DNA of 63,663 bases, counting the filler, from Actinomycetota bacterium (GTDB lineage: Bacteria > Actinomycetota > Actinomycetes > JAKEEW01): the NCBI GenBank assembly GCA_046725875.1. It is 8 parts of 8 records of this genome, joined end to end, with 100 filler letters (N's around TTAATTAATTAA, not from the genome) between each part and the next. Parts side by side here need not be neighbours in the genome. Positions count along the whole stretch, not along the records: positions 7,203 to 15,930 come from JBKOZJ010000031.1; 7 more parts are not named here. One strand, written 5' to 3'. Made by a program: the position numbers and the translations under genes. The notes below the pieces were generated by a model that made no database searches, had not been told where the DNA came from, and was given only the letters and a program-made list of their open reading frames with translations. Positions 12,952 through 47,859 of this stretch are shown here, piece by piece. The stretch's first letter is position 1; every line of letters begins with the position of its first letter.

Positions 12952-13443
12952 TCAGCCGGATACGTCGGAGGTGTACCCCCTGGTCGGGTCCAGAACTACC
13001 ATGTTCGCCCGAAGCGCGATCGCAGCTACCATCTCCGCGGAAACGGGGCCGGTCCGGAGCGCCTCGTCCATTTCTTCAAAGTAAGTCTCCATCGCGCCGG
13101 GCACAAAGATCATCAACTTCCTGGCTTTCTTCGCGCCCACGGTGAAGCCGTGGGGAACACCCCGGGGGATAAAGATGAACGAGCCGGGGCCACACGAAAA
13201 CGCCTCGCGGTCTAGGACAACCTGGTATTCGCCCTCGAGGACGTAGAACGACTCGGCGGTATCGGTGTGAAAGTGAGGCGGCGGTGAGAAACCCGGCATG
13301 TCCTCTGTCTCAAACAGGGACAAGATGCCCTGCGTCTGTTGTGCGGACGCCTTTAAGGACATCTGCATATCGCCGAGGTCAAGCGACTTGCCCTCACCGG
13401 GCTGGGCAACGAAACCGCCTGAGCCGGGTCGCGATTCATCCAT
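12952..13443 (-). CDS. Cupin domain protein (quercetinase-like)
   Basis: PPPHFHTDTAESFYVLEG and FIPRGVPHGF cupin motifs; GAAGGGGA RBS. Confidence 0.85.
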   Translation of the reverse strand: MDESRPGSGGFVAQPGEGKSLDLGDMQMSLKASAQQTQGILSLFETEDMPGFSPPPHFHTDTAESFYVLEGEYQVVLDREAFSCGPGSFIFIPRGVPHGFTVGAKKARKLMIFVPGAMETYFEEMDEALRTGPVSAEMVAAIALRANMVVLDPTRGYTSDVSG

Positions 13444-13630
13444 GATGTTCCCCTTCGGCCACCGGCCAGGATCCTACGCCTGTCGAGGGGACTGGATTCT
13501 TGAGATGCCCCGCAGTGCCCTCCCGGGCTCGCCTCATCGTCTTTGAGTTCCTGGCCTGGTTGCGTGTCGGCGACCAGTTGCCGGTAGACCACGTCGGACA
13601 GTCGTCGTTTGAGTCCCCTAAGTCAGCTGT

Positions 13631-14336
13631 TCAGGCGATGAGTCGTTGCGTGTGTTGTTGCTGCATCGGGTCGTAGGGGGTTGCGTTTCGCCAGCAGGCC
13701 CAGATCACGCGTAGCCAGGCGCGGGCGAGGATGCGGGTGGCGTGGGGATTGCGTTTGCCGCGGGCTCGTGCTCTGGCGTAGTGGTCGGCGGCCCAGCCTG
13801 ATTGCATGCGCGAGTTGTGGGCGAAGGATGTCACCGCCTTGCGGGCGCGGGTGTTGGCCGCCCACCGGAAGTAGACGCCGGTGGTCTTGCCGGAGGCTTT
13901 GGTGACGGGCGCGGCGCCGGCTTCGGCTGCGGCCTGTTCGGCGGTGTCGACTCGGTCGAGGATGGGTCCGACCTCGGCGAGCAGTTGGGCCAGGTTGATA
14001 GTGCCAACGCCAGGTAATGCGGCGAGTAACCGTACCCGTGGATGGGCCTGGACGCGGTCGCGGATGAGCCGCTGGATGTTGCTGATGGCCTGCTGGAGGC
14101 CGCGCAGCAGCTGAACCTGGGCGGCGATCATCGCGGCGAGGGTGTCCGGCGGCAGGCTCTCGCTCGATGATCACCGGAAGGTCTGACGGCCGCCCGTGTC
14201 CGGCCAACCGCTGCAGGGCCGACAGCAATCCCTGCTCGGTGTGGCTGAACGCCCACCGATCCACCACGCTGCCGTCCGTGTCGAGCACGGTGACGTCGTG
14301 GGTGCGGCTTGCCCAGTCCCAGCCGACGAACTTCAT
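13631..14336 (-). pseudogene. IS110 recombinase of the nested element, internal deletion/frameshift near 14160
   Basis: MKFVGWDWA..VIIE (DEDD start) fused out of frame to LPGVG..AGAAPVTKASGK..ARARGK..RILARAWLRVIWACW (Tnp domain); GGGAGG RBS. Confidence 0.9.
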
Positions 14337-14344
14337 TGCTGGCC

Positions 14345-14560
14345 TCCCGTTGGAGTCGGTGGTTGACTCCGCGGTGTCGAGGCCCTCGCCGGTTCCTCAT
14401 TGTTCGGCCCTCGGTCGGGCATGTCCCTAACGCCGGTCGCGGGCCTCGGCGCATCGAGGGTGGCAGGACTCAAACTGGCCGGCAGCGCGGCGCGGCAGCG
14501 AGGCCATCCCCCGACACGACGAGGAGCCACGGCCAGGCGCCGAGCCCAGCCGCGGACCCG
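14345..14560 (-). ncRNA. Predicted IS110 bridge RNA (5' hairpin, target-binding loop, donor-binding loop)
   Basis: Guides: CGCTGCC 14500-14494, GTTTGAG 14475-14469, TTAGGGAC 14430-14423, CAATGAG 14402-14396; they match the reconstructed target and donor, each pair flanking a 4-bp inner hairpin. Ends approximate. Confidence 0.8.
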
Positions 14561-14957
14561 ATACTCCACCAATGAGGCAGCGCAGCGCCTCCATGGGGCT
14601 CTTCCCGGCGGCGAGTTTGCGGCAGTAATAAGCGCGGCCTTCGGTGTCGTGGCGGATCTGCACGATAGCGGCGATGTGCAGGACGTGGTTGATCCGGCGG
14701 TTTCCGCCCAGGACAGCCGGTGGCGGACGTTCTCACCCGAGGATGCCTCGATGGGTGCGGTGCCGGTCCAGGAGGCGAACCGGTTGCGGTCGGCGAACCG
14801 AGCGATGTCGCCGACGTCGGTGAGGATCCGGGCAGCGCCAGCCGGCACCCACGCTGGCCCGTTCGGTCTTGACTGGTTGCGTTCTGATGGGAAGCTGAGA
14901 GCGCTGACAGCCTAAGACCCCAAACCCCGGCCCTGGCCGTGTCGAGAGGTGGTCTCG

Positions 14958-15930
14958 ATGCCCGCCGTGACCCAGTACCTTCGTCGCCGCGGCCTGGCCC
15001 GGCTCACGCCCTACCTGATCGCCGTGATCCTGCCAGGCGCGGCGTTCGCCGCGGCCGATGGTGGGTCCCCCGCACCGGGCCCAGCGCCTCTGCGCGTCAA
15101 CCTGGCCATCGGTGCGGATGCGAGCGCGACCTCGGCGGCGGCCGACAGCCCGGCTGCCAACGCGGTGGACGGGAGCGCCACCACGACGTGGTGTGCCACC
15201 CAGTGGACCGGCAGCGTCACCATCGACTTCGGCGCGCAACGTGCACTTAGCGGCGCCGGCATCACGTTGGGAGCGACCGCCTCGCCATCGGCGGCATCAC
15301 TGGCGCTGGCGACGCGGCTCGACGCGTGGCAGCCGGTGCCCTCGGCACGCAATATCGCGTTGAACGTCAACACGCCGTCCTATATCGCGCTTTCCGCTCA
15401 GCGCGCCCGGTACGCACGGCCGACCGTAACGACCGGGGACGGCACGCCGGCCTGCGTCGGCGAGCTGCGGCTGTTCGGCGACGACGCGGCAACGGACGCG
15501 ATGATGCTCGGCGCCGACCTGTCCTTCACCCAGCAGGAACTGGCCGCGGGCACACAGTTCACCGATGCCGGTGAGACGTCCACGCCGGTGCAGATCCTGC
15601 GCGCCCATGGCGGCAACTACGTCCGGATGCGCCTGTGGCTGAACCCGCCGGCCGGCTACAGCGACCTCACAAATGACCTGGCGCTGGCCCGCGAGGTTGG
15701 GGCGGCCGGCATGAAGATCTACCTTGACATCCACTACTCGGACTTCTGGGCCGACCCGCAGCACCAGGACACGCCCGCCGCATGGCAGGGCCAGGACCTG
15801 CCCACGCTCGCGCGCACCGTCCAGGACTACACCCGCGAGGTGATTGCCGCCTTCGCCAAGCAGGGCACACCGGTGGACATGGTGTCGATCGGCAACGAGA
15901 TCCGCAACGGCATGCTCTGGCCCGTCGGCC
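14958..15930 (+). CDS. GH53 endo-beta-1,4-galactanase with N-terminal discoidin/F5-8-like domain (3' truncated)
   Basis: Signal peptide; NAVDGSATTTW..VTIDFG; YVRMRLWLNP, LDIHYSDFWADP, MVSIGNEI. Confidence 0.9.
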
Positions 15931-16030
15931 NNNNNNNNNNNNNNNNNNNNNNNNNNNNNNNNNNNNNNNNNNNNTTAATTAATTAANNNNNNNNNNNNNN
16001 NNNNNNNNNNNNNNNNNNNNNNNNNNNNNN

Positions 16031-16460
16031 CGTCGCCCGTCGGGCCGATGGTCGTCCCTGGCGGCCCGAGGCGGTCCTTGAGCTCGAGGACGATTCGCTG
16101 CGCGCCTTTCTTCCCGATGCCGGGCACGAGCGTGAGGGCACTCAGGTCCTCGGTCGCGACGGCGCGGCGCAGCGCCTCGGGCGAGTGAACCGCGAGCATC
16201 GCCTGAGCGAGTCGGGGCCCCACGCCGCTGGCGGTCTGTACGAGATCGAATACCGTCCGCTCGTCATCGTCGGCGAAGCCGTAGAGCGTCAGCGAGTCCT
16301 CCCGTACAACCAATGACGTGGCAAGGCGCGCCTGCTCCCCCACCCGCAGCCCGGCAAGCGTCGTCGGGGTGCACTGGACGGCGATGCCGACGCCACCGAC
16401 CTCGACCACTGCGCCGTCCGGTCCGACGGCGGCGACCCGCCCGGCAACGAACGCGATCAC
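16031..16460 (-). CDS. ruvA: Holliday junction branch migration protein RuvA (3' truncated)
   Basis: [55 protein letters not shown]. Confidence 0.97.
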
Positions 16461-31317: not shown

Positions 31318-31450
31318 CCTCACCGATCTTGTAGTTGATGCCGGTGTAGAACAGGATCCGCTCGGTCGTCGTGGTTTTGCCCGCGTCGATATGAGCCATG
31401 ATCCCGATGTTGCGGACCTTGGCCAGCTCAAGAGTGGTGTTGTCAGCCAC
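31318..31450 (-). CDS. fusA: Elongation factor G, N-terminus
   Basis: [27 protein letters not shown]; follows rpsG. Confidence 0.97.
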
Positions 31451-31568
31451 GACGGCTCTTCCTGTTGCTCTCTTTGTCTCTATGTCTCGATGTCTCGATG
31501 TCTCGGCGTCTTCTGTCTGCCTCGGTTGGTCTTGTTTACTTATTCGGACCTCCGCCACCGGGGTGGGT

Positions 31569-32039
31569 CTACCACCGGTAGTGGGCGAAGGCCTTGTTGG
31601 ACTCGGCCATCTTGTGGGTGTCCTCGCGCCGCTTGACGCTGGCTCCGAGACCGTTACTCGCGTCGAGCAGCTCGTTCATGAGTCGTTCGGTCATCGTCTT
31701 CTCGCGGCGCTGCGTGGAGTAGTTCACCAGCCAGCGCAGGCCGAGCGTGGTTGCCCGCGGTGCCCGCACCTCCACCGGCACCTGGTAGGTCGCGCCGCCG
31801 ACTCGCCGGCTGCGGACCTCGAGGGTCGGCTTTACGTTGTCCAGCGCGCGCTTGAGCGTGATGACCGGGTCGGTGCCGGTCTTCTCCCGGCATCCCTCGA
31901 GCGCGCCGTAGACGATGTGCTCGGCAACTGAGCGCTTTCCCGAGTGCAGCACCTTGTTCACGAGCTGGGTGACCAGCGGCGAACCATAGACGGGGTCCAC
32001 GTGGACCGGCCGACGCGGAGCTGGGCCCTTGCGAGGCAT
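31569..32039 (-). CDS. rpsG: 30S ribosomal protein S7
   Basis: [27 protein letters not shown]. Confidence 0.99.
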
Positions 32040-32413
32040 TAGCTCTTCTCCTTCTTCGCGCCGTAGCGGCTGCGCGCCTGCTTACGGTTCTTTACGCCCT
32101 GCGTGTCCAGCGTGCCACGGATGATCTTGTACCGGACGCCGGGTAGATCCTTCACCCGACCCCCGCGCACCAGCACGATGGAGTGCTCCTGCAGGTTGTG
32201 ACCGATGCCCGGGATGTAGGCCGTGACCTCGATCTGGCTGCTAAGTCGGACCCGAGCCACCTTGCGGAGCGCGGAGTTCGGCTTCTTTGGGGTCGTCGTG
32301 TAGACGCGCATGCAGACGCCCCGGCGCTGTGGGCTTCCCTTCAGCGCGGGTGTCTTGGTCTTGGCGACCTTGTCCTTGCGACCCTTGCGGACCAGCTGCT
32401 GGATCGTGGGCAC
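32039..32413 (-). CDS. rpsL: 30S ribosomal protein S12
   Basis: [34 protein letters not shown]. Confidence 0.99.
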
Positions 32414-32750
32414 CGCGTCTCCGTCTTCGTAAGTCGTCGGGTTGGCTTCCACCGCAGTGGCTGCGCATGCCCGCCGTGCTGCGGCGACCGCGGTCCCGTT
32501 TGCACCCGGATGGACCACATTTCTTTCGCTATGATCCGCTTGCCGTATGCCGAGAAGCCGCGGTTTGCGCCTGTTTCGCCCCAGTCATCCGGCCCACGCG
32601 GTCGGGCGTGTCGCCGGATCGGGCCGTACCTCAGGCCCTCAAAATTCGGGAGGGTTGAGGCTCGATCCGTCACGGTGGCATCGCGCTTGCTGCACACAGC
32701 TGGCTGTGACGCGCACTCGAACGCCTGGGGCCGCCCAGGCACGAGGTTAG

Positions 32751-32779
32751 AGAGTACCCGCTGACCCTCCCGAGGTCAA
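32751..32779 (-). promoter_or_regulatory. Housekeeping-sigma promoter for the rpsL operon
   Basis: TTGACC-N17-TACTCT. Confidence 0.75.
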
Positions 32780-32986
32780 AATCGCCAACTCCCGATCGCA
32801 TAAGGGTGCCGTCCCTCGCTAGGTCCAGGTGAGGGCTCCTTCTCGTGCTGCCAAATCGAGGGGGCCCGCAGTCGGGTGCCGCGCCAGCCCGGGGATCCTC
32901 CTCGCCGCCGACCACACCGATCTTTGCAGGCGGCTCGACCTCGCTATCCGCGAGACAAAGGCCGAACGCGCTGTAGCGTGCCGGAT

Positions 32987-33301
32987 ATGACGTACGCCTT
33001 GATCAACAAGCTCGCGGCAAAGCCGGGCCAGCGCGATCGGGTCATCGAGATCTTGCTGGAGTCGATGAAGCTGTTCGGCGACAACCCGGCATGCCTTTAC
33101 TCGATCGTCCACGAGGCGATCGCTGATCCGAACGAGCTCTGGGTTGCCGACCTCTGGACGAGCAAGGAGGAACACGAGGCGGCGCTGCAGGTCCCCGAGC
33201 TACGGCCGTTCGTGGAGGCGGCGATCCCGCTCCTCGAGGGCATGCCGCAACAGACCGAACTCCGCCCGGTCGGCGGCAAGGGCCTCCCACCTGGTTCCTA
33301 G
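32987..33301 (+). CDS. Antibiotic biosynthesis monooxygenase (ABM) family protein
   Basis: AKPGQRDRV..LWVADLWTSKEEHEAAL; TAGCGT 7 nt before the ATG suggests a leaderless mRNA. Confidence 0.85.
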   Translation: MTYALINKLAAKPGQRDRVIEILLESMKLFGDNPACLYSIVHEAIADPNELWVADLWTSKEEHEAALQVPELRPFVEAAIPLLEGMPQQTELRPVGGKGLPPGS

Positions 33302-33322
33302 CGTCAGCTACCTCCGGCAGCT

Positions 33323-33356
33323 ACCGTGGGCCGCCCCCTTGGGGGCGGCCCACGGT
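33323..33356. terminator. Hairpin between convergent ABM and rpoC
   Basis: Perfect 16-bp IR ACCGTGGGCCGCCCCC / GGGGGCGGCCCACGGT. Confidence 0.8.
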
Positions 33357-33429
33357 CACTAGCTCAGCCACAAGGGCTGGGTCCCCGCGAAGTTTTGGAG
33401 CGAAGCGGTCAAAACCTCGTCAGGTGCCC

Positions 33430-36400
33430 TTAGCGGTAACCGCCCAGGTCGTATTCCTCGAGCGGAACCGCCTGGCCAGAACCCCCACCGAAGGTCGGGT
33501 AGGCGGTGTACTCCGTGTCGTACGGCGTCATCGTGTACATGGCCGCCTTCGCCTCCTCGGTCGGCTCCACCCGGATGTTCCGGTAGCGCGGCAGGCCGGT
33601 GCCGGCCGGGATGAGCTTTCCGATGATGACGTTCTCCTTCAGGCCGACCAGCGGGTCGGACTTGCCGTGCATGGCGGCCTCGGTCAGCACCCTGGTGGTC
33701 TCCTGGAAGGAGGCGGCCGACAGCCACGACTCGGTGGCCAGCGACGCCTTCGTGATGCCCATGAGCACCGGGCGTCCCGAGGCCGGCTGCCCGCCATCGG
33801 CGACCACCCGGCGGTTTTCCTCCTCGAAGCGGGCACGCTCGACGAGCTCGCCGGGCAGCAGCTCCGCGTCGCCCGACTCGATGACGGTCACCCGGCGTAG
33901 CATCTGCCGGATGATGATCTCGATGTGCTTGTCGTGGATTGACACGCCCTGCGAGCGGTAGACCTGCTGCACCTCGTCGACGAGGTGCTGCTGCACCGCG
34001 CGCTGGCCGAGCACCCGGAGCACGTCGTGCGGGTTGACCGCACCGGCGATCAGCTGCGCACCAACGTTGATGTGGTCTCCGTCGTGGACAAGCAGCCTGG
34101 CTCGCTTGGAGACCGGGTAGGAGACCTCGTCCGACCCGTCGTCCGGGGTGACCATGGCGCGCCGCGTCTTCTCCGTGTCCTCGATCCGGACCCGGCCGGT
34201 GACCTCCGAGATCGGGGCGACACCCTTGGGCTGGCGGGCTTCGAAGAGCTCGACGACCCGGGGCAGGCCGTGGGTGATGTCCTCACCTGCGACACCGCCG
34301 GTGTGGAAGGTCCGCATCGTCAGCTGCGTGCCCGGCTCACCGATGGACTGGGCGGCGATGATGCCGACGGCCTCGCCGACGTCGACGAGCTTGCCGGTGG
34401 CGAGGGAACGGCCGTAGCACGCTGCGCACGTACCGACCTTGCTCTCACAGGTGAGCACGGACCTGACCCGTACCTCCTCAATGCCCTTCTCGATGAGCCG
34501 GTCGAGGAGGATGTTGGTCATGTCGGCACCGCCGATGGCCACGGTCTCGCCCTCGACGACGATGTCCTCGGCGAGGTTACGGGCGACCACTCCGGTGTCG
34601 ACGTTCTCGTCCTTGCGCAGCTGGCCGCCGGCGGTACGAACCACGATAGGGAGCCGGACCGCGCGGTCGGTGCCACAGTCCTCTTCGCGGATGATGACGT
34701 CCTGCGAGACGTCGACCAACCGCCGGGTGAGGTAGCCGGAGTCGGCAGTACGCAGGGCGGTGTCGGCCAGGCCCTTCCGCGCGCCATGGGTCGAGATGAA
34801 GTACTCGACCACGGACAGGCCCTCGCGGAAGTTCGACTTGATCGGCCGCGGGATGATCTCGCCCTTCGGGTTGGCGACCAAACCACGCATACCGGCAAGC
34901 TGCTTGACCTGCATCATGTTGCCGCGGGCGCCCGAGTTGACCATCGCGAAGACCGAGTTGGTCTTCGGGAAGTTCTCCTCCATCTTCTTGGAGACTTCAT
35001 TGGTCGCGTGGGTCCAAATCTGGATGAGCTCCTGCCGGCGCTCCTCGTCGGTGATCAAACCCTTCTCATACTGCGCCTGGACCCGGTCGGCCTTGGCCTC
35101 ATACGACTCCAGGATCTGCGCCTTCTCCGCCGGCTGGATGACGTCGCCGATGGCCATCGTGACGCCGGACCTGGTCGCCCAGTGGAATCCGACCTCCTTC
35201 AGGCCGTCGAGGGTGACCGCAACTTGGACCTTCGGGTAACGCTCGGCCAGGTCGTTGACGATCGCGGACAGCCGCTTCTTGTCGACCTCGACGTTCACGT
35301 ACGGGTAGTCCGCCGGGAGCACCTCGTTGAAGAGGGCACGGCCAAGCGTGGTCTTGAGGGTGAAGGACCGGCCCCGCTCCCGGTCCTCCGGCGCCGTCCA
35401 AGAGCGAGGCGGCACCACGTCCGTGAAGCGGACCAGGATCTCAGACTGCAGATCGATCTCACCCGCGTCCAACGCCATGAGCGCCTCACTCACCGAGGCG
35501 TAGGCGTGGCCGTTGCCGTCCTTCCGGTCCTCGCGCGAGCTGGTGAGGAAGTAGATGCCGATGACCATGTCCTGGGTCGGCATCGTCACCGGACGCCCGT
35601 CAGCCGGCTTCAGGATGTTGTTCGACGACAGCATCAGGATCCGGGCCTCGGCCTGCGCCTCGGCGGACAGCGGCAGGTGGACCGCCATCTGGTCGCCGTC
35701 GAAGTCCGCGTTGAACGCGGTGCAGACCAGCGGGTGGATCTGGATTGCCTTGCCCTCGATCAGCTGTGGCTCGAAGGCCTGGATGCCGAGCCGGTGCAGC
35801 GTCGGCGCCCGGTTGAGCAGGACCGGGTGCTCGGCGATGACCTCCTCGAGCACGTCCCAGACCACCGGCCGGGCCCGCTCGACCATGCGCTTGGCCGACT
35901 TGATGTTCTGCGCGTGGTTCAGGTCGACCAGCCGCTTCATCACGAACGGCTTGAACAGCTCGAGCGCCATCGCCTTGGGCAGGCCGCACTGGTGCAGCTT
36001 GAGCTGCGGGCCCACGACGATCACCGAGCGGCCCGAGTAGTCCACCCGCTTGCCGAGCAGATTCTGCCGGAATCGGCCCTGCTTGCCCTTGAGCATGTCG
36101 GAGATCGACTTGAGCGGGCGGTTGCCCGGTCCGGTGACCGGGCGGCCGCGGCGCCCGTTGTCGAACAACGCGTCGACGGCCTCCTGGAGCATCCGCTTCT
36201 CGTTGTTGACGATGATCTCCGGCGCGCCCAGGTCGAGCAGCCGCTTCAACCGGTTGTTCCGGTTGATGACCCGGCGATAGAGGTCGTTCAGGTCCGAGGT
36301 GGCGAACCGGCCACCGTCGAGCTGAACCATCGGCCGAAGGTCCGGCGGGATCACCGGCACGCAGTCGAGGACCATGCCCAGCGGCGAGTTGCGAGTGGTG

Positions 36401-37308
36401 AGGAAGGCCGAGACGACCTTGAGCCGCTTGAGCGCGCGGGTCTTCTTCTGGCCCCTACCGGTCCGGATGACCTCGCGCAGCCGCTCGGCCTCCCCCTCGA
36501 GGTCGAAGGACTCCAGCCGCGACTTGATCGCGGCGGCGCCCATGCCGCCCTCGAAATACTGGCCGAAGCGGTCCCGCATCTCGCGGTAGAGCATCTCGTC
36601 GCCCTCGAGGTCTTGGACCTTGAGGTTCTTGAACCGGCTCCACACCTCATCGAGGCGGTCGAGCTCCCGCTGAGCGCGGTCACGTATCTGCTTCATCTCG
36701 CGCTCGCCGCCCTCGCGGACCTTGCGGCGTACATCGCTCTTGGCGCCCTCGGCCTCGAGCTCGGCCAGGTCGGCCTCGAGCTTCTTCTGCCGGGCCTCGA
36801 CATCGACGTCGCGGCGCTGCTCGATCCGCTGGCGCTGGACCTGGATCTGTGCCTCCAGGGTGGGCAGGTCGCGGTGGCGCGCCTCCTCGTCCACCCAGGT
36901 GATCATGTACGCGGCGAAGTAGATGACCTTCTCCAGGTCCTTCGGAGCGAGGTCGAGCAGGTAGCCGAGGCGTGACGGAACACCCTTGAAGTACCAGATG
37001 TGTGTCACGGGTGCGGCGAGCTCGATGTGACCCATCCGCTCCCGCCGCACCTTGGCCCGGGTGACCTCGACCCCGCAGCGCTCGCAGATGATGCCCTTGA
37101 ACCGGACCCGCTTGTACTTGCCGCAGTAGCACTCCCAGTCGCGGGTCGGACCGAAGATCTTCTCGCAGAAGAGCCCGTCCTTCTCCGGCTTAAGGGTGCG
37201 GTAGTTGATCGTTTCTGGCTTCTTTACCTCGCCGTGCGACCACTGACGAATGTCGTCGGCGGTCGCCAGGCCGATTCGTAGCTCGTCGAAGAAGTTGACG
37301 TCGAGCAC
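33430..37308 (-). CDS. rpoC: RNA polymerase beta' subunit
   Basis: [20 protein letters not shown], 1292 aa. Confidence 0.99.
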
Positions 37309-37351
37309 TTAATTCCTCTTCTCAGATTCTTTGTCTCACCAAGGCCGCTGA

Positions 37352-40813
<3,462 letters not shown>

Positions 40814-40901
40814 AAGAGGTCCTTCCGAGAGCTCGCGGACTCACTGCGCGCATGCCACAGCGCCCCGTGTCAAGGGATAGATGTGGGCAGCGCAAATTAG
40901 C

Positions 40902-40930
40902 AGTGTAGCCCGTAGGCCCACCGCTGTCCA
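40902..40930 (-). promoter_or_regulatory. rpoBC promoter
   Basis: TGGACA-N17-TACACT. Confidence 0.75.
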
Positions 40931-41230
40931 GCGGGGTCTCCAACGTCTGGCGAGATCCCGAGCCTCACGCATTCGCACAGCGTGTGGGCAGCATGTCTCG
41001 CTAGAACGCCCCACGTCAAGGCCTACCCGCCAGGAACTTGGCCGAGCAGGACTCCCGCAGAGTGGATCAGATCGACAGAAGAAGAAGAAGTGGATCTCGC
41101 TGGCGTGGTGGCTGCTTGCCATTTGCCAGCTTTAACAGAGCCTTCTTCCTTTTTGTTCCCGGACCCGTCGGCGGGCGAGGGAGGCGGCCAACCCGCACGG
41201 TTGGCCGCCTCTGCGGGTGCGGTGTCGGCC

Positions 41231-41626
41231 TTACCTGAGGGTCACGGTGGCGCCGGCGCCCTCGAGCGCCGCCTTGGCCTTGTCCGCCGCCTCCCTGTTG
41301 ACCTTCTCCAGGACCGGCTTCGGGGTGCTCTCCACCAGGTCCTTGGCCTCTTTGAGGCCGAGGCTGGTGAGAGTACGGACTTCCTTGATGACCTGGATCT
41401 TCTTGTCACCCGCGGCCTCGAGGACGACGTCGAACTCGTCCTGCTCCTCCTCGGGCTCAGCCGCGACCGGCGCACCCGGCGCGGCCGCGCCCGGAGCAGC
41501 GACCGCGACCGGAGCGGCAGCGGTCACGCCGAAGGTGTCCTCGAACTGCTTGACGAACTCAGAGAGCTCAATCAGCGACATCTCCTTGAACGCGTCAAGA
41601 AGGTCGTCGGTGCTCAGCTTCGCCAT
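41231..41626 (-). CDS. rplL: 50S ribosomal protein L7/L12
   Basis: [27 protein letters not shown]. Confidence 0.99.
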
Positions 41627-41700
41627 GATTGGCGGTTCCTTCCTAGCTTGCCGGCGCCCTGCCGCCGGACGTCTGTCTTGATCGTTGTGGTGCTGGCTCG

Positions 41701-42228
41701 TCAGGCTTCGGCCTGCTCGGCTTTCTGCTGGCGCAACGCCTCGATCAGGCGAGCCATCTGTGCGAGGGGCGCGGCGAGCAACGACGCCGCCTGCTGCGGC
41801 CCGGCTTTCAGCACGCCCGCGAGCCTTGCGAGGAGCACCTCGCGCGACTCGAGATCGGCCAGCCTCCTGATCTCGTCGGCGCTCAACGGTTTGCCGTCGA
41901 GCACCCCACCTTTGATGACGAGAAATGGGTGTGTCCGGGCAAAGTCACGAAGTCCCTTGGCCGCCTCCACCGGGTCGCCCTTGACGAACGCGATCGCGGA
42001 CGGCCCGACGAGCAGCTCTGCCAGTTGCTCGACGCCGGCCTCCTGCGCCGCGATCTTGGTCAGCGTGTTCTTCACCACGGCATACTTCGCGGAGTCACCG
42101 AGCGCGCGCCGGAGCTCCTTGAGCTCGGCGACGCTGAGGCCGCGATATTCCGTCAGCACGGCTGCGTTCGAGCTGCGGAGTTCTTCCGCAAGCTCGCCGA
42201 CCGCGGCCGTCTTGTCAGGCCTCGCCAT
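41701..42228 (-). CDS. rplJ: 50S ribosomal protein L10
   Basis: [36 protein letters not shown]. Confidence 0.98.
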
Positions 42229-42297
42229 GGGCCTCCCTTTCCGTGGGTACGTACACCCGCTTTGAGACCGTTCGCCGGCGGTCGGATGCCCCCGTAC

Positions 42298-42495
42298 AAA
42301 CGGAAAACGCCCCGGCGCAGGCACGGGGCGAAAGCCGGCCACATCGGGCCGCCACGATCGGGTCGCGTTCGCCGATGGTCTGGACGAGCCAGGATCCTTG
42401 CTACGCGATCATCGTGCTTCGTCACGCCTGCGCTGGCCGCCCGTTTGTAACGGGACCTTCGGTCGCCCGTGCGAGGCGACAACCGGCGGTCTCTG
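42298..42495 (-). promoter_or_regulatory. L10 leader (autoregulatory RNA)
   Basis: AGACCGCCGG..ACCGAAGG..GCGCAGGC..CCTGCGC followed by a U-rich tract upstream of rplJ. Boundaries approximate. Confidence 0.65.
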
Positions 42496-42558
42496 GCAGG
42501 TACTAACCGTACGTGACCGCCCGTCGCCGCAGCAAATCTCGGCCTGCGGTGCTGGTGA

Positions 42559-42652
42559 CCGGATTGATCCGCCAAGCGCAGGAAACCTGACCGATGCGCC
42601 TCTCACGCGAGACGCCAAGCCCTGGTTTTCAGCGCTTGGCGGATCAATCCGG
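42559..42652. repeat. 94-bp element with perfect 21-bp terminal inverted repeats
   Basis: CCGGATTGATCCGCCAAGCGC (42559-42579) / GCGCTTGGCGGATCAATCCGG (42632-42652). Confidence 0.9.
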
Positions 42653-42727
42653 AAGTCGGCGGCCCTGACCCGCAGCCCAGCGACTGGTGGCCTGCCCCCG
42701 GACACCCAAGAGCGGTTGGTGCGAGTC

Positions 42728-43561
42728 CTAACTGGTGGTGCTGCCGGGGAAGTTGGCAACCTGATCGGCCGGCGGCGTCGCAAGGTCTACGGGCTTATTG
42801 ATGTCGGCAATGTTCATCGTCACGGTCACGTCGCCGGCGGACGAGGGCGCGAGGGCGACCAACTTGCGCGGCTGGAACTTATCATCGACCCACACGGTGT
42901 AGTTGATCTTCTCGATGCCGAGCTCGTCGTACGACTTCTTCAGCGCCTCGCGCTGGCTCGGCTCCAAGCCAGCCAGGTTGGCCACATCGGTCGCGTCGAG
43001 CTCGGCCACGTACTTGGTGGTCTGGACGCCGTCGATCTCCTCGGCGCCCGCGGCGGTGACATCGCTGGAGCTGACGAACGCCTTCATCTGAGTGGCGGGG
43101 TCGATCTGCGCGAACTGGTTGAGCAGGTCTCCGAGACCCATCTCCTCGCCGCCGAGCGTGACCCAATACTTGCCGCCGAGCGCCGACGACAGCTCGCCCA
43201 GATGCAGGTAGAAGGCGTTGTCTACGAACAGGACCTCAGCGCCGCTGAGTGACTGGCCGGCTGCCTCGAGGTTCTGCAGCTTGAGATGCATGGCGAGCGA
43301 CGGCTCACGCTGGTATTCGCCGGTGCCCTTCATCTTGATCGCCGCGTCACCGGTGCCCGTCATGTCCAGCGTGAACGTCCACGACTTCATCGCGTCGAGC
43401 TGCTGGCTGACCTTGGCCATCGCCGCTTCGGCGGTAATGGTCTGCGGCCCCCCCGCGGTTGTGTCGCCGCTGTCGTCATCGCCGCTGCACGCCGTGACCA
43501 CGAGGGCAAGGGCCGCCAGACCGGCGACGGCGGCCGGGCGGAGTGAACGCAGGATGCGCAC
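42728..43561 (-). CDS. LppX/LprAFG-like lipoprotein
   Basis: Lipobox LVVTA-C; EEIDGVQTTKY, VWVDD, DINKPV..PPADQV. Confidence 0.8.
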   Translation of the reverse strand: MRILRSLRPAAVAGLAALALVVTACSGDDDSGDTTAGGPQTITAEAAMAKVSQQLDAMKSWTFTLDMTGTGDAAIKMKGTGEYQREPSLAMHLKLQNLEAAGQSLSGAEVLFVDNAFYLHLGELSSALGGKYWVTLGGEEMGLGDLLNQFAQIDPATQMKAFVSSSDVTAAGAEEIDGVQTTKYVAELDATDVANLAGLEPSQREALKKSYDELGIEKINYTVWVDDKFQPRKLVALAPSSAGDVTVTMNIADINKPVDLATPPADQVANFPGSTTS

Positions 43562-43678
43562 GAGCTTCCCCAATCGCTTCCGGTATTCGCTCGATCTTAC
43601 GTATGTACAGATGTGCGAGTAGGCCAGATCGTTCCTACCCGCACATCTGTTATCGCACCGTGGTGTTGCCGTCCCCGA

Positions 43679-43706
43679 CTAGCGGCGGCCCGCTCGCCGC
43701 CGCTAG
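43679..43706. terminator. Hairpin at the end of rplA
   Basis: CTAGCGGCGGC-N6-GCCGCCGCTAG. Confidence 0.6.
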
Positions 43707-44422
43707 CGGGCAGCGGCCTCCTCGGTCAAGAGGTTGCGCGTCTTGCTGGTGTCGACCGGGATGCCGGGGCCCATGGTCGTCGTGAGGGTGGCCTTCTTGA
43801 GGTAGCGGCCCTTCGCCGCGGACGGCTTCAGCCGCAGCACCTCGTCGAGCGCGGCGGCGTAATTCTCCACCAGATCCCGTTCGGTGAACGACGTCTTGCC
43901 GATAACGACGTGCAGGTTGGCGTGGCGGTCCACCCGGAACTCGATCTTGCCACCCTTGATGTCCGACACGGCCTTGGCGACGTCGTTGGTGACGGTCCCG
44001 GTCCTTGGGTTCGGCATCAGGCCGCGCGGTCCGAGCACCCGGCCGAGCCGGCCGACCTTGCCCATCATGTCGGGAGTGGCGACGCTGGCATCGAAGTCGA
44101 GAAAACCGCCCTGGACCCGCTCGATCAGCTCGTCCCCGCCGACGAAGTCCGCGCCGGCCGCCCTGGCCTCCTCGGCCCGCTCACCGGTCGCGAAGACAAG
44201 AACCCGGGCGGTCTTGCCGGTCCCGTGCGGCAGGTTGACCGTGCCGCGCACCATTTGGTCCGCCTTGCGCGGGTCGACGCCGAGCCGCAGCGCGACCTCT
44301 ACGGTCCCGTCGTACTTCGTGGTGGAGGTCTGCTTGGCGAGCCGCACCGCATCGAGCGGCGAATAGAGCTCAGTGCGATCCACCGTCTCGGCGGCCTTAC
44401 GGTATGCCTTGCTGCGCTTCAT
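43703..44422 (-). CDS. rplA: 50S ribosomal protein L1
   Basis: [31 protein letters not shown]. Confidence 0.99.
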
Positions 44423-44444
44423 GTTGCTGCTCCTTTGTGACTGG

Positions 44445-44482
44445 AGGTCGTGGTCGCGGGCCAGCGCCTGGCCCTCCCACTC
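44445..44482 (-). promoter_or_regulatory. Putative L1-binding mRNA structure between rplK and rplA
   Basis: GTGG-GAG-GGCCAG-GCG-CTGGCC-CGCGA-CCAC hairpin with an asymmetric internal loop just before the rplA RBS. Confidence 0.55.
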
Positions 44483-44519
44483 CGCACCCGCCGACTCGGG
44501 CGGGGTCATTGGCGGGCTT

Positions 44520-44948
44520 CTACTCGATAGTGATCCCCATTTGCTGGGCGGTACCGGCAATGATCTTCTCGGCGGCGTCCAGGTCGTTCGCATTCAGGTC
44601 GGGCATCTTGGTCTGCGCGATCTCGCGGACCTGCTCCCGACTGAGTTTGCCGACCTTCACCCGGTGCGGCTCACCGCTGCCCTTCTCCAGCCCGGCGGCC
44701 TTGAGAATGAGCTTCGCGGCAGGCGGCGTCTTCGTGACGAAGGTGAACGACCGATCCTCATAGATCGTGATCTCCACCGGGATCACGTTGCCGCGCTGCG
44801 ACTCCGTGGCCGCGTTGTAGGCCCTGGTGAACTCCATGATGTTGACGCCATGCTGCCCGAGCGCCGGGCCGACCGGCGGCGCCGGCGTGGCCTGGCCGGC
44901 TTGGATCTGCAGCTTGACGACCGCTGCAACCTTCTTCTTGGGAGGCAT
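44520..44948 (-). CDS. rplK: 50S ribosomal protein L11
   Basis: [22 protein letters not shown]. Confidence 0.99.
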
Positions 44949-45059
44949 TCCGGCTTCCTCAATCGTGCGGCGCCTGGTCGGCGCTCACTGTCCAATATCG
45001 TGCCGCGCCTGATCGGCGCGGCACTGACTTCTTGAGACCAACCGCCACGCGGTTGCGGT

Positions 45060-45833
45060 CTAATTCTTCTGTATCTGGGAGAACGACAGCTCGACCGGTG
45101 TCTCCCGGCCGAAGATTTCCACCAGGCCCTTGACCTTCTGGGCGTCCGGGTTGATCTCGTGGATCGTCGCCTGGAGCGTCGCGAAGGGACCATCGATGAC
45201 CGTGACCGAGTCACCAACCTCGAAGTCGAGCACCTTGACCTGCGCAGGCGCCTTCTCCTTGCGCTCCACCTGCGGCGCGAGCGCCTCGAACACCTCGTTG
45301 AAGGTCAGCGGCACCGGCGAGTGGCTGTGGCCCACGAAGCCCGTCACTCCGGGCGTGTGCCGCACGGCGGACCACGACTCGTCGGTCAGATCCATCCGGA
45401 CCAGCACGTAGCCGGGCATCTTGACCCGCTTGATGTTCTTGCGCTGGCCACTCTTGATCTCGACGACCTCCTCCTGCGGCACCTCAACCTGGAAGATGTA
45501 GTCCTCCATGTTGAGCGACGCGATCCGGTTCTCGAGATTTGCCTTGACCCGGTTCTCGTAGCCTGCGTAGGAGTGGACGACGAACCAATCCCCGGGCGCC
45601 GCCTCGAGCTGCTTGCGGAACTGGGCGACCTCGGGCGGGTCAGCCTCATCTCCGGCCTCGCCCTCGTCGCCGGGCGCCGGCGATGGTTGCGGCTCCCCCT
45701 GCTCCAGCGTCTCGGGGGTGGGTGACCTCTGCTCCACAAGGTCGGCGTCGGTCTCTGCGGACTCGGCGAGCTCAGCCTGCGCCGAGGCGAGGGCCGCCCG
45801 GGCCTGGTCGGTGTAGTCCTGGGTTTCGGACAC
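45060..45833 (-). CDS. nusG: Transcription factor NusG
   Basis: [33 protein letters not shown]; acidic N-terminal extension typical of actinobacteria. Confidence 0.98.
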
Positions 45834-45873
45834 GATGGTGCTCTCTATCTGTAATGAGCGGTGGCGTCGGCGC

Positions 45874-46122
45874 TCAGCCGAACACCTCGAGGACCGCCTG
45901 GCTGAACAGGTAGTCGAGGCCGGACACGTAGGCGAGCATGATCAGCACGAACACGATGACGACGCTGGTGTAGGTGATCAGCTCGCGCCGGGTTGGGCGG
46001 ACCACCTTGCGTAGCTCGGCGAGCACCTGACGGTAGAAGCGGCGGGGTGTCGTGCGGGGTCGCGTTGGGGTGCGCGTCGGTGGGCGCAAGGGCGCCTGGG
46101 TCGAGCCGCGCGTGTCGGTCAC
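45874..46122 (-). CDS. secE: Preprotein translocase SecE
   Basis: [13 protein letters not shown] plus one TM helix; lies between tRNA-Trp and nusG. Confidence 0.95.
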
Positions 46123-46216
46123 GTGATCCTCACTTGATCGGGATGCCGGCCCGGGATTCAGGGCAGCCGGGCACGGGTCTTTGGGTGGCGCGCCCGCCAA
46201 GCTGGCAGGCGCTCCG

Positions 46217-46289
46217 CAGGGCCGGAGGGACTCGAACCCCCAACCACCGGTTTTGGAGACCGGGACTCTACCAATTGAGCTACGACCCT
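46217..46289 (-). tRNA. tRNA-Trp(CCA)
   Basis: AGGGTCG..CCGGT-CTCCAAA-ACCGG..GGTTCGAGTCC..CGGCCCTG; canonical position before secE. Confidence 0.97.
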
Positions 46290-46572
46290 TGATCATGGTC
46301 GCCGCAACAACATGCAGGCATGCTGACGCCGACCACCAACGCCCGAGTGTACGTGGAAGACCGGCCCCGATGCGAACCAGAGCCGGCAAGCCTCCAGGGC
46401 GGCCCCCAGCCGTCGGGAGGCAAGGAACATCGGCTGCCGCGGATCCCGTAATCGCGACCCGAGGGCCAATCTCAGCCGGGGTTGAAGGACGCCTAGCCCC
46501 AAACTCATTGGAGCAAAGGGGACCCTTCTACCTGACAAGCGAGGGGGTAGACGGGGTGCCAAGATTGGTGCC

Positions 46573-47778
46573 ATGCCCGCTGCAAACCGCATATCTGCCC
46601 GGGCCGCCTCGATCACCGAGTCGGCAACGCTCGCCGTCGATGCCAAGGCAAAGGCCATGAAGGCGGCCGGCCGCCCGGTGATCGGGTTTGGTGCCGGTGA
46701 GCCGGACTTTCCGACGCCCGACTACATCGTTGAGGCAGCGGCCAAGGCTTGCCGCGATCCCCGCAACCACCGCTACACCCCAACGGCTGGCCTGCCCGAA
46801 TTGCGGGAGGCGATTGCGGCCAAAACCGAGCGAGACTCCGGACTGGCGGTCGATCCGGCGCAGGTGCTCGTTACCAACGGCGGGAAACACGCGGTGTACG
46901 CGGCCTTTGCCACGCTGCTCGACCCGGGCGACGAGGTGCTGCTGCCGACGCCGTACTGGACGAGCTATCCAGAGGTGATCAAGCTTGCCGGCGGCGTTCC
47001 GGTGCAGGTCCTCGCCGACGAGTCGCAGGGCTACCTGGCGACCGTCGACCAGCTCGACGCCACGCTGACGGAGCGGACCAAGGTCCTCCTGTTCTGCTCG
47101 CCGTCGAACCCAACCGGCGCGGTCTACTCCCCGGCGCAGGTGACGGAGATCGGCCGCTGGGCGGCATCCCGCCGGCTGTGGGTCGTGACCGACGAGATCT
47201 ACGAGCATCTCGTCTATGGCGACGCGCGGTTCGCGTCCATCGCCGTCGAGGCTCCGGAGCTCACCGACCGTTGCATCGTGCTTAACGGCGTCGCGAAGAC
47301 GTACGCGATGACCGGCTGGCGAGTCGGCTGGATGGTCGGTCCAGTCGATGTGATCTCGGCGGCCACCAACCTGCAGTCGCATATGACCTCGAACGTGGCC
47401 AACGTCTCGCAGCGCGCGGCGCTCGCCGCCGTCAGCGGCGATCTTTCGGCCGCCGCTGAGATGCGCCGCGCCTTCGACCGCCGGCGGCAGACGATTGTGA
47501 GCATGCTCAACGAGGTACCGGGGGTGACATGTCCGGAACCACACGGCGCCTTCTACGCGTACCCCTCGGTTCGGCAACTTGTCGGACGGGAGATCAATGG
47601 CCGCAGGGCTCACTCGTCCACCGAACTGGCCGGGGTCATCCTGGACGAGGCTGAGGTCGCGGTGGTACCGGGTGAGGCATTCGGGACGCCAGGCTACCTA
47701 CGACTCTCCTATGCTTTGTCGGACCCGGACCTGGTGGAGGGCATTACCAGGCTGCAGAAGCTATTCGCCCCGAGCTGA
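46573..47778 (+). CDS. PLP-dependent class I (aspartate-type) aminotransferase
   Basis: [34 protein letters not shown]. Confidence 0.95.
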
Positions 47779-47859
47779 CGGTTGGGTGCTTGGGGAGGCC
47801 GCCGACTTGCCTACCTGGATGCGCGCTTTCGTAAGCCTGCTCGGCAAAGTTCTCCCAAC

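What the first reader, a model, noticed from the sequence alone, without database searches (positions are those of the whole stretch)
14345..14560. Fully readable bridge RNA with four guides and handshake bases
Seen on the - strand, in order. (1) 5' hairpin CCGCGGCTGGGC/GCCTGGCCGTGG. (2) Target loop closed by TCGGGGGATGGC/GCCACCCTCGA, holding CGCTGCC, inner stem GCCG/CGGC and GTTTGAG (complement of CTCAAAC). (3) Donor loop closed by GAGGCCC..CCGG/CCGG..GGGCCTC, holding TTAGGGAC (right end is TTAGGGGAC, one G more), inner stem GCCC/GGGC and CAATGAG (complement of CTCATTG). The extensions GTTTGAG-TCC and CAATGAG-G pair with the product junctions GGACTCAAAC and CCTCATTG, as described for IS621 handshake pairing. 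Here the left guides stop at the C of a 4-nt shared core and the right guides are 7 nt, which may differ from the IS621 register.
Basis: partly seen in the sequence, partly recalled or inferred. Interest (0 to 1): 0.8.

Follow-up and report, generated by a model that had tools for sequence, protein, structure and literature searches.

The report
Bridge RNA of a broken IS110 element
This stretch encodes a genuine guide ("bridge") RNA of an IS110-type jumping gene, readable base by base, but this copy of the element has lost most of its recombinase gene and sits as a fossil inside another jumping gene of the same family.

Summary

**What is there.** On the minus strand, window 14576-13614 is a 963-bp IS110-group element. 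Its left end carries a 177-nt bridge RNA (14555-14379) with a 5' hairpin, a target-binding loop and a donor-binding loop.

**Evidence for the RNA**
- A covariance model built only from 43 relatives finds it at 124 bits (E 2e-22).
- Its seven helices covary across 44 sequences.
- All four guides covary with insertion-site flanks or element ends in the 75 of 81 loci that could be parsed.
- The first handshake base of each loop pairs with the non-cognate DNA (38 of 40 and 33 of 37 pairs) and never with the cognate one.
- The "one extra G" at the right end is not a mutation. Every relative has 9 end bases facing an 8-nt guide.

**This copy is defective**
- A 491-bp frameshifting deletion removes recombinase residues 60-222.
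- The -35 box is mutated.
- Two near-invariant RNA positions differ from the family.
- This 89%-complete genome holds no intact recombinase of the family.

**Where it sits.** The element and its 27 closest relatives lie in the RCL|KR codons of other IS110-type transposase genes.

**Verdict.** Known kind (IS621-type), new member, with modest variant features.

The parts
13614..14576 (-). Whole IS110-group element, counting one copy of the CT core; 963 bp. About 1454 bp before its internal deletion.
   Evidence: Junctions read. A soil contig joins 13609 to 14573, skipping 963 letters with 4 letters shared, which is an empty site.
14577..14582 (-). Left target half CGCTGC. Together with C 14576 it is the 7 nt matched by the left target guide.
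14575..14576 (-). CT core at the left junction. The second copy is at 13613-13612.
14561..14566 (-). -10 box GAGTAT of the promoter that only a right-end/left-end circle junction completes.
   Evidence: Pattern xAxxAT in all 34 distinct junction types, with a 17-nt spacer to the -35 in the right end. A12, A15 and T16 are invariant in alignment A3.
14527..14555 (-). 5' hairpin, 12 pairs.
   Evidence: Fold. Helix 1 has 5 of 6 pairs changed on both sides.
14454..14514 (-). Target-binding loop module: outer stem 14514-14503 / 14464-14454, inner hairpin 14491-14478.
   Evidence: Helices 3 and 4 are 99.7% and 99.2% paired; 6 of 8 outer pairs change on both sides.
14494..14500 (-). Left target guide CGCUGCC, same sense as the target top strand at positions 2-8.
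   Evidence: 7 of 7 match to the left flank. Family covariation is 307 of 448 against 190 in shuffles, with signal in columns 2-8 only.
14469..14475 (-). Right target guide GUUUGAG, complementary to CTCAAAC at target positions 8-14.
   Evidence: In the family, 68 of 78 variable cells pair against 28.2 in shuffles; 13 of 15 distinct guides have a perfectly complementary flank.
14466..14468 (-). Target-loop handshake bases UCC, complementary to GGA, the last 3 nt of the right end before the core.
   Evidence: The first base pairs with donor position 7 in 38 of 40 and with cognate target position 7 in 0 of 40.
14379..14447 (-). Donor-binding loop module: outer stem in two steps, inner hairpin 14420-14407.
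   Evidence: Helices 5-7 are 97-100% paired, with GC-to-CG swaps in 18 and 8 sequences.
14423..14430 (-). Left donor guide UUAGGGAC, 8 nt, facing the 9-nt right end TTAGGGGAC.
   Evidence: Contiguous registers give 112 or 136 of 184; leaving out one end base at r4-r8 gives 155-163.
14396..14402 (-). Right donor guide CAAUGAG, complementary to the left-end start CTCATTG.
   Evidence: 8 distinct pairs, 52 of 56 Watson-Crick; CAATGAG, TAATGAG, TAGTGAG and CAGTGAG each track their own left end.
14395..14395 (-). Donor-loop handshake base G, which pairs with C at target position 7.
   Evidence: 33 of 37 pair with target position 7 (G with C in the close group, C with G in the far group). 0 of 32 pair with the cognate donor position 7.
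14343..14370 (-). Hairpin GGAGTC/GACTCC and ribosome-binding site GGGAGG ahead of the recombinase ATG (14336).
   Evidence: Not analysed further.
14160..14336 (-). Recombinase N-terminal fragment, residues 1-59 (PF01548 DEDD domain start).
13631..14159 (-). Recombinase C-terminal fragment, from residue ~223 to the stop (PF02371), out of frame with the N-terminal fragment. The deletion joint is 14160|14159.
   Evidence: Soil contigs about 95% alike run on with other letters exactly at 14159/14160.
13613..13626 (-). Right end: -35 box CTGACT (13626-13621; TTGACT in relatives) and the 9-nt donor left half TTAGGGGAC (13621-13613).
   Evidence: All laid contigs read the consensus letter at 13626.
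13607..13611 (-). Right target half CAAAC.
14577..14887 (-). Host gene, upstream part: 5'-truncated, frameshifted remnant of another IS110-type transposase gene ending ...EALRCL.
   Evidence: PF02371 hit. Two frames are needed to read it.
13500..13613 (-). Host gene, downstream part: LKRRLSDVVYRQLVAD...

Best explanation
The region is the bridge-RNA gene in the left end of an IS110-group insertion sequence.

**Mechanism, inferred by analogy with IS621; nothing was measured here.**
1. After excision, the circular form joins the right end to the left end. This places a -35 box (TTGACT in relatives) 17 nt from a -10 box (GAGTAT), and transcription starts near the 5' hairpin.
2. The roughly 177-nt RNA binds the recombinase.
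3. Its target loop reads the insertion site on both strands. CGCUGCC pairs with the bottom strand left of the core. GUUUGAG pairs with the top strand, covering the core and 5 nt to its right.
4. Its donor loop reads the circle junction. UUAGGGAC pairs with the right end with one DNA base looped out. CAAUGAG pairs with the left-end start.
5. After cleavage behind CT, the bases 3' of each right guide (UCC, G) pair with the other DNA's position 7 (5-7 for UCC) and help strand exchange.

**Shown here:** the fold, the guide-flank covariation, the handshake pattern, the element's borders and an empty site.

**State of this copy:** it is a fossil. The recombinase gene has a 491-bp frameshifting deletion, the -35 is mutated, and the RNA departs from the family at two near-invariant positions. 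The lineage homes into the RCL|KR codons of other IS110-type transposase genes.
For: **Context**
- PF01548 and PF02371 fragments lie directly downstream.
- Full-length relatives are 399 aa.
- The only solved structure matched is the IS621 transposase (E 5e-7). The D, E, D..D and SG motifs align in relative P0001.

**Fold**
- Searches give the fold.
- 34 pairs, 97.0% paired against 88.2% in shuffles, 0 of 500 shuffles reaching any of the five measures; slid controls 29-53%.

**Membership**
- A model built from 43 relatives without the window scores the window at 124.4 bits, E 2e-22, full length.
- It gives a single hit in the genome.

**Guides (distinct pairs, 5000 shuffles)**
- Right target guide: 167 of 182 against 122.6; variable cells 68 of 78 against 28.2.
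- Left target guide: 307 of 448 against 190. Shifted registers give 80-125 Watson-Crick cells of 424-464 counted.
- Right donor guide: 52 of 56.
- Left donor guide: 155 of 184 against 135.4 with one end base skipped.

**Handshake**
- 38 of 40 and 33 of 37 pair with the non-cognate DNA; 0 of 40 and 0 of 32 with the cognate DNA.
- This is the pattern that PMC11208158 reports as necessary for strand exchange (passages read).

**Borders and promoter**
- An empty-site contig skips 963 letters with 4 shared.
- Junction promoter: TTGACT in 30 of 34 junction types, xAxxAT in 34 of 34.
- No promoter-like site in the integrated state.

**Decay**
-.
Against: - No RNA evidence. The one metatranscriptome laid carried nothing on the RNA region.
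- Rfam has no family that reaches E 1 here.
- The single-sequence fold is not significantly better than shuffles (z -1.93).
- The guide and end strings were pulled out with regular expressions. These fix CTCA at the left end, a -35-like anchor plus [AT]C-T at the right end, and nt 4-7 of the right target guide. Counts for the core, the -35 box and those guide columns are therefore conditioned by the parse.
- Six of 81 loci were dropped: L017, L028, L030, L034 and L067 had no usable left end, and L044 had an unparsed target loop.
- Shuffles do not preserve relatedness.
- The left donor guide needs a 1-nt skip that IS621 does not show in the passages I read.
- Seven of 10 close-group relatives whose right target guide has U at nt 5 face a C at target position 10, a mismatch.
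Confidence: 0.9

Rival explanations
1. The structured region is only the leader of the recombinase mRNA, controlling translation or stability. Its matches to the flanks are a by-product of site-specific insertion by a protein that reads the DNA itself.
For: A hairpin and ribosome-binding site lie between the donor loop and the ATG. The RNA would be co-transcribed with the gene. Nothing here shows RNA-DNA pairing directly.
Against: - Guides change together with the flanks across 15 distinct right target guides and 56 distinct left guide/flank pairs.
- The signal disappears when the register is shifted.
- The handshake bases avoid the cognate DNA in 0 of 40 and 0 of 32 cases. A protein-only reader would not produce that.
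- The homologous IS621 system is shown to be RNA-guided (PMC11208160 and PMC11208158, passages read).
Confidence: 0.03
2. The stretch is protein-coding. Open frames cross it: 14333..14848 on the minus strand (171 aa) and 14309..14575 on the plus strand (88 aa).
For: Open frames of 88-171 aa overlap it.
Against: - In DNA with 72% G+C, such frames are expected.
- The alignment of 44 relatives has 1- and 2-nt indels and compensatory pair changes.
- The minus-strand frame is just the broken host gene running on into the element.
- No Pfam domain falls in the region (one search covers the neighbouring pieces only).
Confidence: 0.01
3. The RNA of this copy is still made and used, with a recombinase supplied in trans by another element. 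The copy would then be a non-autonomous but mobile element.
For: Both ends, all four guides and all seven helices are intact in this copy. The genome is only 89% complete and repeats are often unassembled.
Against: - In this genome, no intact recombinase of the family was found. Only the two fragments and a 26%-identical broken paralogue appear.
- There is a single copy of the element and of the RNA.
- The -35 is CTGACT where 30 of 34 junction types, and all laid contigs, have T.
- A G is missing from the basal helix, and C replaces a near-invariant A at 14482.
Confidence: 0.08

Closest known systems
IS621 bridge RNA (Durrant et al. 2024, PMC11208160; Hiraizumi et al. 2024, PMC11208158; passages read)
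   Same: - It lies in the left end of an IS110-group element.
[quoted passage not shown]
- Left guides have the sense of the top strand and right guides are complementary to it.
- The core is CT.
- An 8-nt left donor guide.
- Handshake bases sit 3' of each right guide and pair with position 7 of the non-cognate DNA.
- The promoter is split between the right end and the left end.
- The recombinase is homologous.
   Different: - Recombinase similarity to IS621 is low: E 5e-7, with only the C-terminal domain aligned with confidence.
- The left target guide gives signal over 7 nt and stops on the C of the core; the next base is G opposite T9. IS621's guide is 9 nt.
- The natural right target guide is 7 nt (positions 8-14) against 4 nt in IS621, where extension to position 14 had to be engineered.
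- The right donor guide is an unbroken 7 nt, whereas IS621 flips out two U.
- The left donor duplex needs one DNA base looped out.
- Positions 10-11 (CA) are shared by donor and target in most members.
seekRNA of IS110-type ISEc21 (Siddiquee et al. 2024, PMC11187229; passages read)
   Same: The non-coding region upstream of the transposase gene gives an RNA with short matches to both strands of the target, and that RNA is essential for movement.
   Different: That work stresses a processed 70-100-nt form carrying the target-recognition part. Whether the RNA here is processed cannot be told from sequence.
[quoted passage not shown] Cited in the reference list of PMC11208160; the paper itself was not read.
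   Same: A DEDD-recombinase element whose natural target lies in another mobile element.
   Different: These belong to the IS1111 group, with the RNA in the right end. Their target is a transposon end, not a conserved coding motif of a transposase gene of their own family.
IS900/IS116-type actinobacterial IS110 elements. Recalled from memory, not from any call: reported to insert next to start codons and ribosome-binding sites in one orientation.
   Same: The more distant relatives found here (55-62% identity) lie at ...CT|CA(T/C)... sites that read ATG/GTG-AG on the other strand. Eighteen of 37 have a Shine-Dalgarno-like motif upstream.
   Different: The window's own lineage has a different target, the RCL|KR codons. 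No named ISfinder entry could be checked with these tools.

Membership tests
IS110-group (IS621-type) bridge RNA | Encoded in the non-coding left end, upstream of a DEDD (RuvC-like) plus Tnp-domain recombinase gene. | tested here: met
   PF01548 and PF02371 fragments lie downstream of the RNA. The layout is the same in 75 parsed loci.
IS110-group (IS621-type) bridge RNA | [quoted passage not shown] | tested here: met
   7 helices, 97.0% of cells paired, 19 pairs changed on both sides.
IS110-group (IS621-type) bridge RNA | The first internal loop carries a left and a right guide that covary with the two sides of the insertion site. | tested here: met
   0 of 5000 shuffles reach the observed matches. 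In the window, 7 of 7 and 7 of 7.
IS110-group (IS621-type) bridge RNA | The second internal loop carries guides that match the element's own right and left ends. | tested here: met
   The right donor guide is 7 of 7 in the window. The left donor guide is 8 of 8 only if one of the 9 end bases is skipped, as in all 23 distinct pairs.
IS110-group (IS621-type) bridge RNA | A CT core dinucleotide is present at both junctions. | tested here: met
   Read directly at 14576-14575 and 13613-13612. Counts in relatives are conditioned by the parsing patterns.
IS110-group (IS621-type) bridge RNA | Handshake bases 3' of each right guide pair with position 7 of the non-cognate DNA and not with the cognate DNA. 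| tested here: met
   38 of 40 and 33 of 37 against 0 of 40 and 0 of 32.
IS110-group (IS621-type) bridge RNA | [quoted passage not shown] | tested here: inconclusive
   Relatives have TTGACT, 17 nt, then xAxxAT, but the right ends were located with a -35-like anchor. The window has CTGACT. No transcription data.
IS110-group (IS621-type) bridge RNA | The RNA is made, binds the recombinase and is required for recombination. | not testable with these tools
   Only assembled contigs of public runs were available.
IS110-group (IS621-type) bridge RNA | Match to a curated RNA family. | tested here: not met
   No Rfam 15 family up to E 1 in 13000-15500. This shows only that no curated model reaches this sequence.
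Autonomous (intact) IS110 element | Complete recombinase with the D-E-D-D residues and the catalytic serine in one frame. | tested here: not met
   Residues 60-222 are missing and the rest is out of frame. The missing part holds the DPGD motif that aligns with the IS621 motif holding D102 and D105 (residue numbers from PMC11208158).

The most novel reading that the evidence does not exclude
The window's element belongs to a lineage of IS110 elements that parasitises other IS110 elements. Its target loop is set to the conserved ...CGN TGC CT|N AAR CG... (R-C-L-K-R) codons near the 3' end of other IS110-type recombinase genes.

Its guides carry U opposite two synonymous third-codon positions. 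One guide therefore tolerates CGC/CGT and AAA/AAG through U:G wobble.

In addition, the left donor duplex of the whole clade would work with one DNA base looped out, a geometry not described for IS621.

If both are real design features, they show how natural bridge RNAs cope with degenerate multi-copy targets and with non-contiguous guide-DNA pairing.
Probability: 0.45. Interest if true: 0.55.

Novelty: new member of a known kind. Interest (0 to 1): 0.38.

Why it matters
Bridge RNAs have been known since 2024 and are predicted in most IS110 elements, so finding one is not surprising. The value here is in the detail.

- This actinobacterial clade gives an unusually clean natural example: 7 + 7 nt target guides, a natural long right guide of the kind that had to be engineered into IS621, and a clear handshake signature.
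- It suggests two things worth a bench test. The first is a constant one-base bulge in the left donor pairing. The second is homing into a conserved coding motif of other IS110 recombinase genes, with wobble-tolerant guide positions.
- For annotating this genome, the locus should be recorded as a nested pair of dead insertion sequences.

Tried and rejected
- **Rfam scan of 13000-15500:** no match up to E 1.
- **Promoter scan of the integrated locus:** no sigma-70-like site on either strand. One terminator-like site on the plus strand, at chance level.
- **First locus search:** Repeated with the 10 full-length proteins.
- **First two guide-parsing patterns:** the first was too strict and the second mis-picked some right ends. 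Refined.
- **Pfam on the 100-codon left flanks:** Repeated with the stop-free ends of 24 of 27 close-group loci. Nine of the 24 gave no hit; seven of those are 22-49 residues long or decayed, and L003 (110 aa) and L012 (98 aa) are long but decayed upstream.
- **Public runs:** no run held more than 0.20 of the sampled words. The RNA run X15 laid only short pieces on conserved coding parts and nothing on 14379-14555, so nothing can be said about expression.
- **Fixed position for the looped-out right-end base:** rejected. Skipping r4 to r8 gives 155-163 of 184, too close to choose between.
- **A bulge in the left target pairing:** rejected. Matches fall steadily as the skip moves inward, from 313 to 101 of 456.
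- **A pairing RNAalifold proposed between the first three bases of the left donor guide and UGA of the right donor guide:** left out of the tested structure as unproven.
- **Literature:** four searches and the passages read did not show a report of IS110 elements targeting other IS110 recombinase genes, or of a bulged left donor duplex. This does not show that neither is in print. Supplementary tables of the 2024 papers, which list thousands of reconstructed targets, were not opened.

Full report
**1. What is at the coordinates**

Exact positions are in the parts list.

The left junction reads CGCTGCC|TCATTG at 14582-14570. The right junction reads TTAGGGGAC|TCAAAC at 13621-13607. The complement of GGACTCAAAC recurs at 14466-14475 on the plus strand. 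That is the right target guide plus three further bases.

The minimum-energy fold of 14582-14337 reproduces the 12-pair 5' hairpin and both stem/internal-loop arms. In this 72% G+C sequence the energy is not remarkable: z = -1.93, and 4 of 200 shuffles fold as well. No Rfam family matches.

**2. Context**

- Directly downstream lies a gene start with a PF01548 (DEDD) match, 14336-14155. In another frame there is a PF02371 match, 14131-13631.
- Upstream, 14848-14573 also hits PF02371.
- Translation shows that the flanks belong to one gene of another IS110-type transposase...EALRCL (ending at 14574), then the element, then LKRRLSDVVYRQLVAD (from 13613).
- That host gene is itself 5'-truncated and needs two frames to be read.
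- The feature is therefore an IS110-group element on the minus strand, 14576-13614, nested in the remains of another. The reconstructed target is CGCTGC-CT-CAAAC.

**3. This copy is broken**

- Full-length relatives are 399 aa; the best is 91% identical over the C-terminal fragment.
- The window keeps residues 1-59 and about 223-399, in different frames.
- Soil-metagenome contigs about 95% alike cover 13774-14159 and 14160-14582, and run on with other letters exactly at 14159/14160. Read by eye, those loose ends translate to ..RLRAAPTAPL and TSGLIVDRLL, the sequence relatives have on either side of the missing part.
- The deletion is 491 bp and frameshifting. It removes the DPGD motif, which aligns with the corresponding IS621 motif; that motif holds D102 and D105.
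- The same contigs carry the family consensus at three places where the window differs:
  - the first base of the -35 box (13626);
  - a G missing from the basal helix (behind 14519 on the plus strand);
  - 14482, where 40 of 43 relatives have A and the window has C.
- The genome has 197 contigs and is 89% complete. It holds one copy of the element, one match to the RNA model and no intact recombinase of the family.
- A copy in a sister genus (L082) is also truncated.

**4. Relatives**

A scan of one genome per species returned 80 loci. They fall into two groups: a close group at about 70-84% protein identity and a far group at 54-63%.

The 5' untranslated regions align over their whole length. 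I parsed the four guides, the flanks and the ends from 75 of 81 sequences, the window included.
- Dropped: L017, L028, L030, L034 and L067 for lack of a usable left end, and L044 for an unparsed target loop.
- Sixty-five had a right end.
- The parsing patterns fix some letters, as listed in the Against line. I therefore report the free columns separately.

**5. Structure**

On 44 sequences less than 93% alike (43 of the 74 parsed relatives plus the window), the tested structure has 34 pairs in 7 helices.

| Measure | Observed | Shuffles |
|---|---|---|
| Cells paired | 97.0% | 88.2% |
| Pairs changed on both sides | 19 | 9.2 |
| Cells changed on both sides | 131 | 38.5 |

For every measure, 0 of 500 shuffles reach the observed value. 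Sliding the partners by 1-3 columns gives 29-53% paired.

A covariance model built from the 43 relatives alone (target and donor modules, 149 positions) scores the window at 124.4 bits, E 2.1e-22. The next hit in the window scores 15.3 bits.

**6. Guides**

All counts are on distinct guide/flank pairs, with 5000 shuffles.

- **Right target guide against target positions 8-14.**
  - 167 of 182 Watson-Crick cells against 122.6 expected.
  - The three free columns give 68 of 78 against 28.2, and no shuffle reaches either value.
  - Thirteen of 15 distinct guides have a perfectly complementary flank.
- **Left target guide.**
  - 307 of 448 against 190.
  - Signal lies in columns 2-8 and none in column 1 (5 of 56).
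  - Shifted registers give 80-125 Watson-Crick cells of 424-464.
The following base cannot pair with T9.
  - No internal skip helps.
- **Right donor guide.** Eight distinct pairs, 52 of 56, with CAATGAG, TAATGAG, TAGTGAG and CAGTGAG tracking CTCATTG, CTCATTA, CTCACTA and CTCACTG.
- **Left donor guide.**
  - All 23 distinct pairs have 9 end bases (between the -35 box and T9) facing 8 guide bases.
  - The two contiguous registers give 112 and 136 of 184.
  - Leaving out one end base at positions 4-8 gives 155-163, or 170-177 with wobble.
Its exact place cannot be fixed.

**7. Handshake**

| Base | Pairs with non-cognate DNA | Pairs with cognate DNA |
|---|---|---|
| First base 3' of the right target guide | Donor position 7: 38 of 40. 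Includes a switch to A where the end has T (L038, L041). | Target position 7: 0 of 40 by Watson-Crick pairing |
| First base 3' of the right donor guide | Target position 7: 33 of 37. G with C in the close group, C with G in the far group. | Donor position 7: 0 of 32 |

The second and third bases after the right target guide pair in 20 of 40 and 14 of 40. The window's three-base match (UCC with GGA) is therefore longer than the family norm.

Pairing with the non-cognate DNA and avoidance of the cognate DNA is what PMC11208158 reports for IS621 (passages read).

**8. Promoter**

The right end carries TTGACT in 30 of 34 distinct junction types. The window alone has CTGACT. The left end carries xAxxAT at a fixed place in all 34, and the junction would give a 17-nt spacer. 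The right ends were located with a -35-like anchor, so the -35 count is conditioned by the parse.

The integrated locus has no promoter-like site. This fits the split promoter described for IS621, but it remains an inference.

**9. Target of the lineage**

- All 24 testable left flanks of the close group end in ..RCL, and 15 of 24 hit PF02371. The other nine are mostly short or decayed.
- The right flanks begin LKR(Y/R).
- The facing guide bases are U in 23 of 26 close-group loci at the third base of the Arg codon. The targets there are C 16, T 2, A 4, G 1.
- They are U in 24 of 25 at the third base of the Lys codon, where the targets are A 14 and G 10.
- This fits wobble tolerance but is not proof. 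At the Leu third base, 7 of 10 U-type guides face C, a mismatch.
- The element's own recombinase lacks the RCLKR motif.
- Far-group members lie at sites that read ATG/GTG-AG on the other strand. Eighteen of 37 have a Shine-Dalgarno-like motif.

**10. Comparison and verdict**

The only solved structure matched by a full-length relative is the IS621 transposase (E 5e-7). Against IS621 the layout and logic are the same. The differences are listed under Closest known systems. PMC11208160 predicts bridge RNAs in 85.7% of catalogued IS110 elements, so this is a new member of a known kind.

My four literature searches and the passages I read showed no report of the RCLKR homing or of the bulged donor pairing. 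Supplementary tables were not opened.

Noticed in passing
window 15964-16033: A run of N with TTAATTAATTAA in the middle, giving stops in all six frames. This is an artificial spacer between contigs. The window is a concatenation of contigs of a draft genome; searches place 31318-48591 on a different contig (C34) from the finding (C31).
   Followed up: partly
window 14577-14887 and 13500-13613 (minus strand): The host of the element is itself a dead IS110-type transposase gene. It lacks its N-terminal two thirds, has a frameshift between ..RHRLS and GGNRRINH.. (about 14705-14715), and is split by the insertion at RCL|KR.
   Followed up: yes
loci L033-L081 (far group), right flanks: Relatives at 55-62% identity are inserted at CT|CA(T/C)NN sites that read ATG-AG or GTG-AG on the opposite strand. 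Eighteen of 37 have GGAG/GAGG/AGGA 5-20 nt upstream, which places them at gene starts. This recalls (from memory) the start-codon/ribosome-binding-site targets reported for IS900-type elements.
   Followed up: partly
window 14343-14370 (minus strand): A hairpin GGAGTC..GACTCC lies between the donor loop and the ribosome-binding site GGGAGG of the recombinase gene. It is present in many close relatives and may couple RNA structure to translation.
   Followed up: no
alignment A3 columns 178-180 with 217-219 (window 14430-14428 with 14399-14397): RNAalifold pairs the first three bases of the left donor guide (UUA/UCA) with UGA inside the right donor guide. The counts are 42 UA; 26 UG plus 17 CG; and 39 AU plus 5 GU. 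This could be an intra-loop contact or a by-product of the ends' sequences.
   Followed up: no
locus L082 (sister-genus genome G003), about 352-760: Another copy of the same element type, again in ..IRCL codons, whose recombinase frame breaks after 52 residues. Decayed copies seem common in this bacterial family.
   Followed up: partly
window 12952-13443 (minus strand): The 163-aa open frame just downstream of the host remnant reads like a cupin-fold protein (..FYVLEGEY..FIFIPRGVPHGF..). This was judged by eye only.
   Followed up: no
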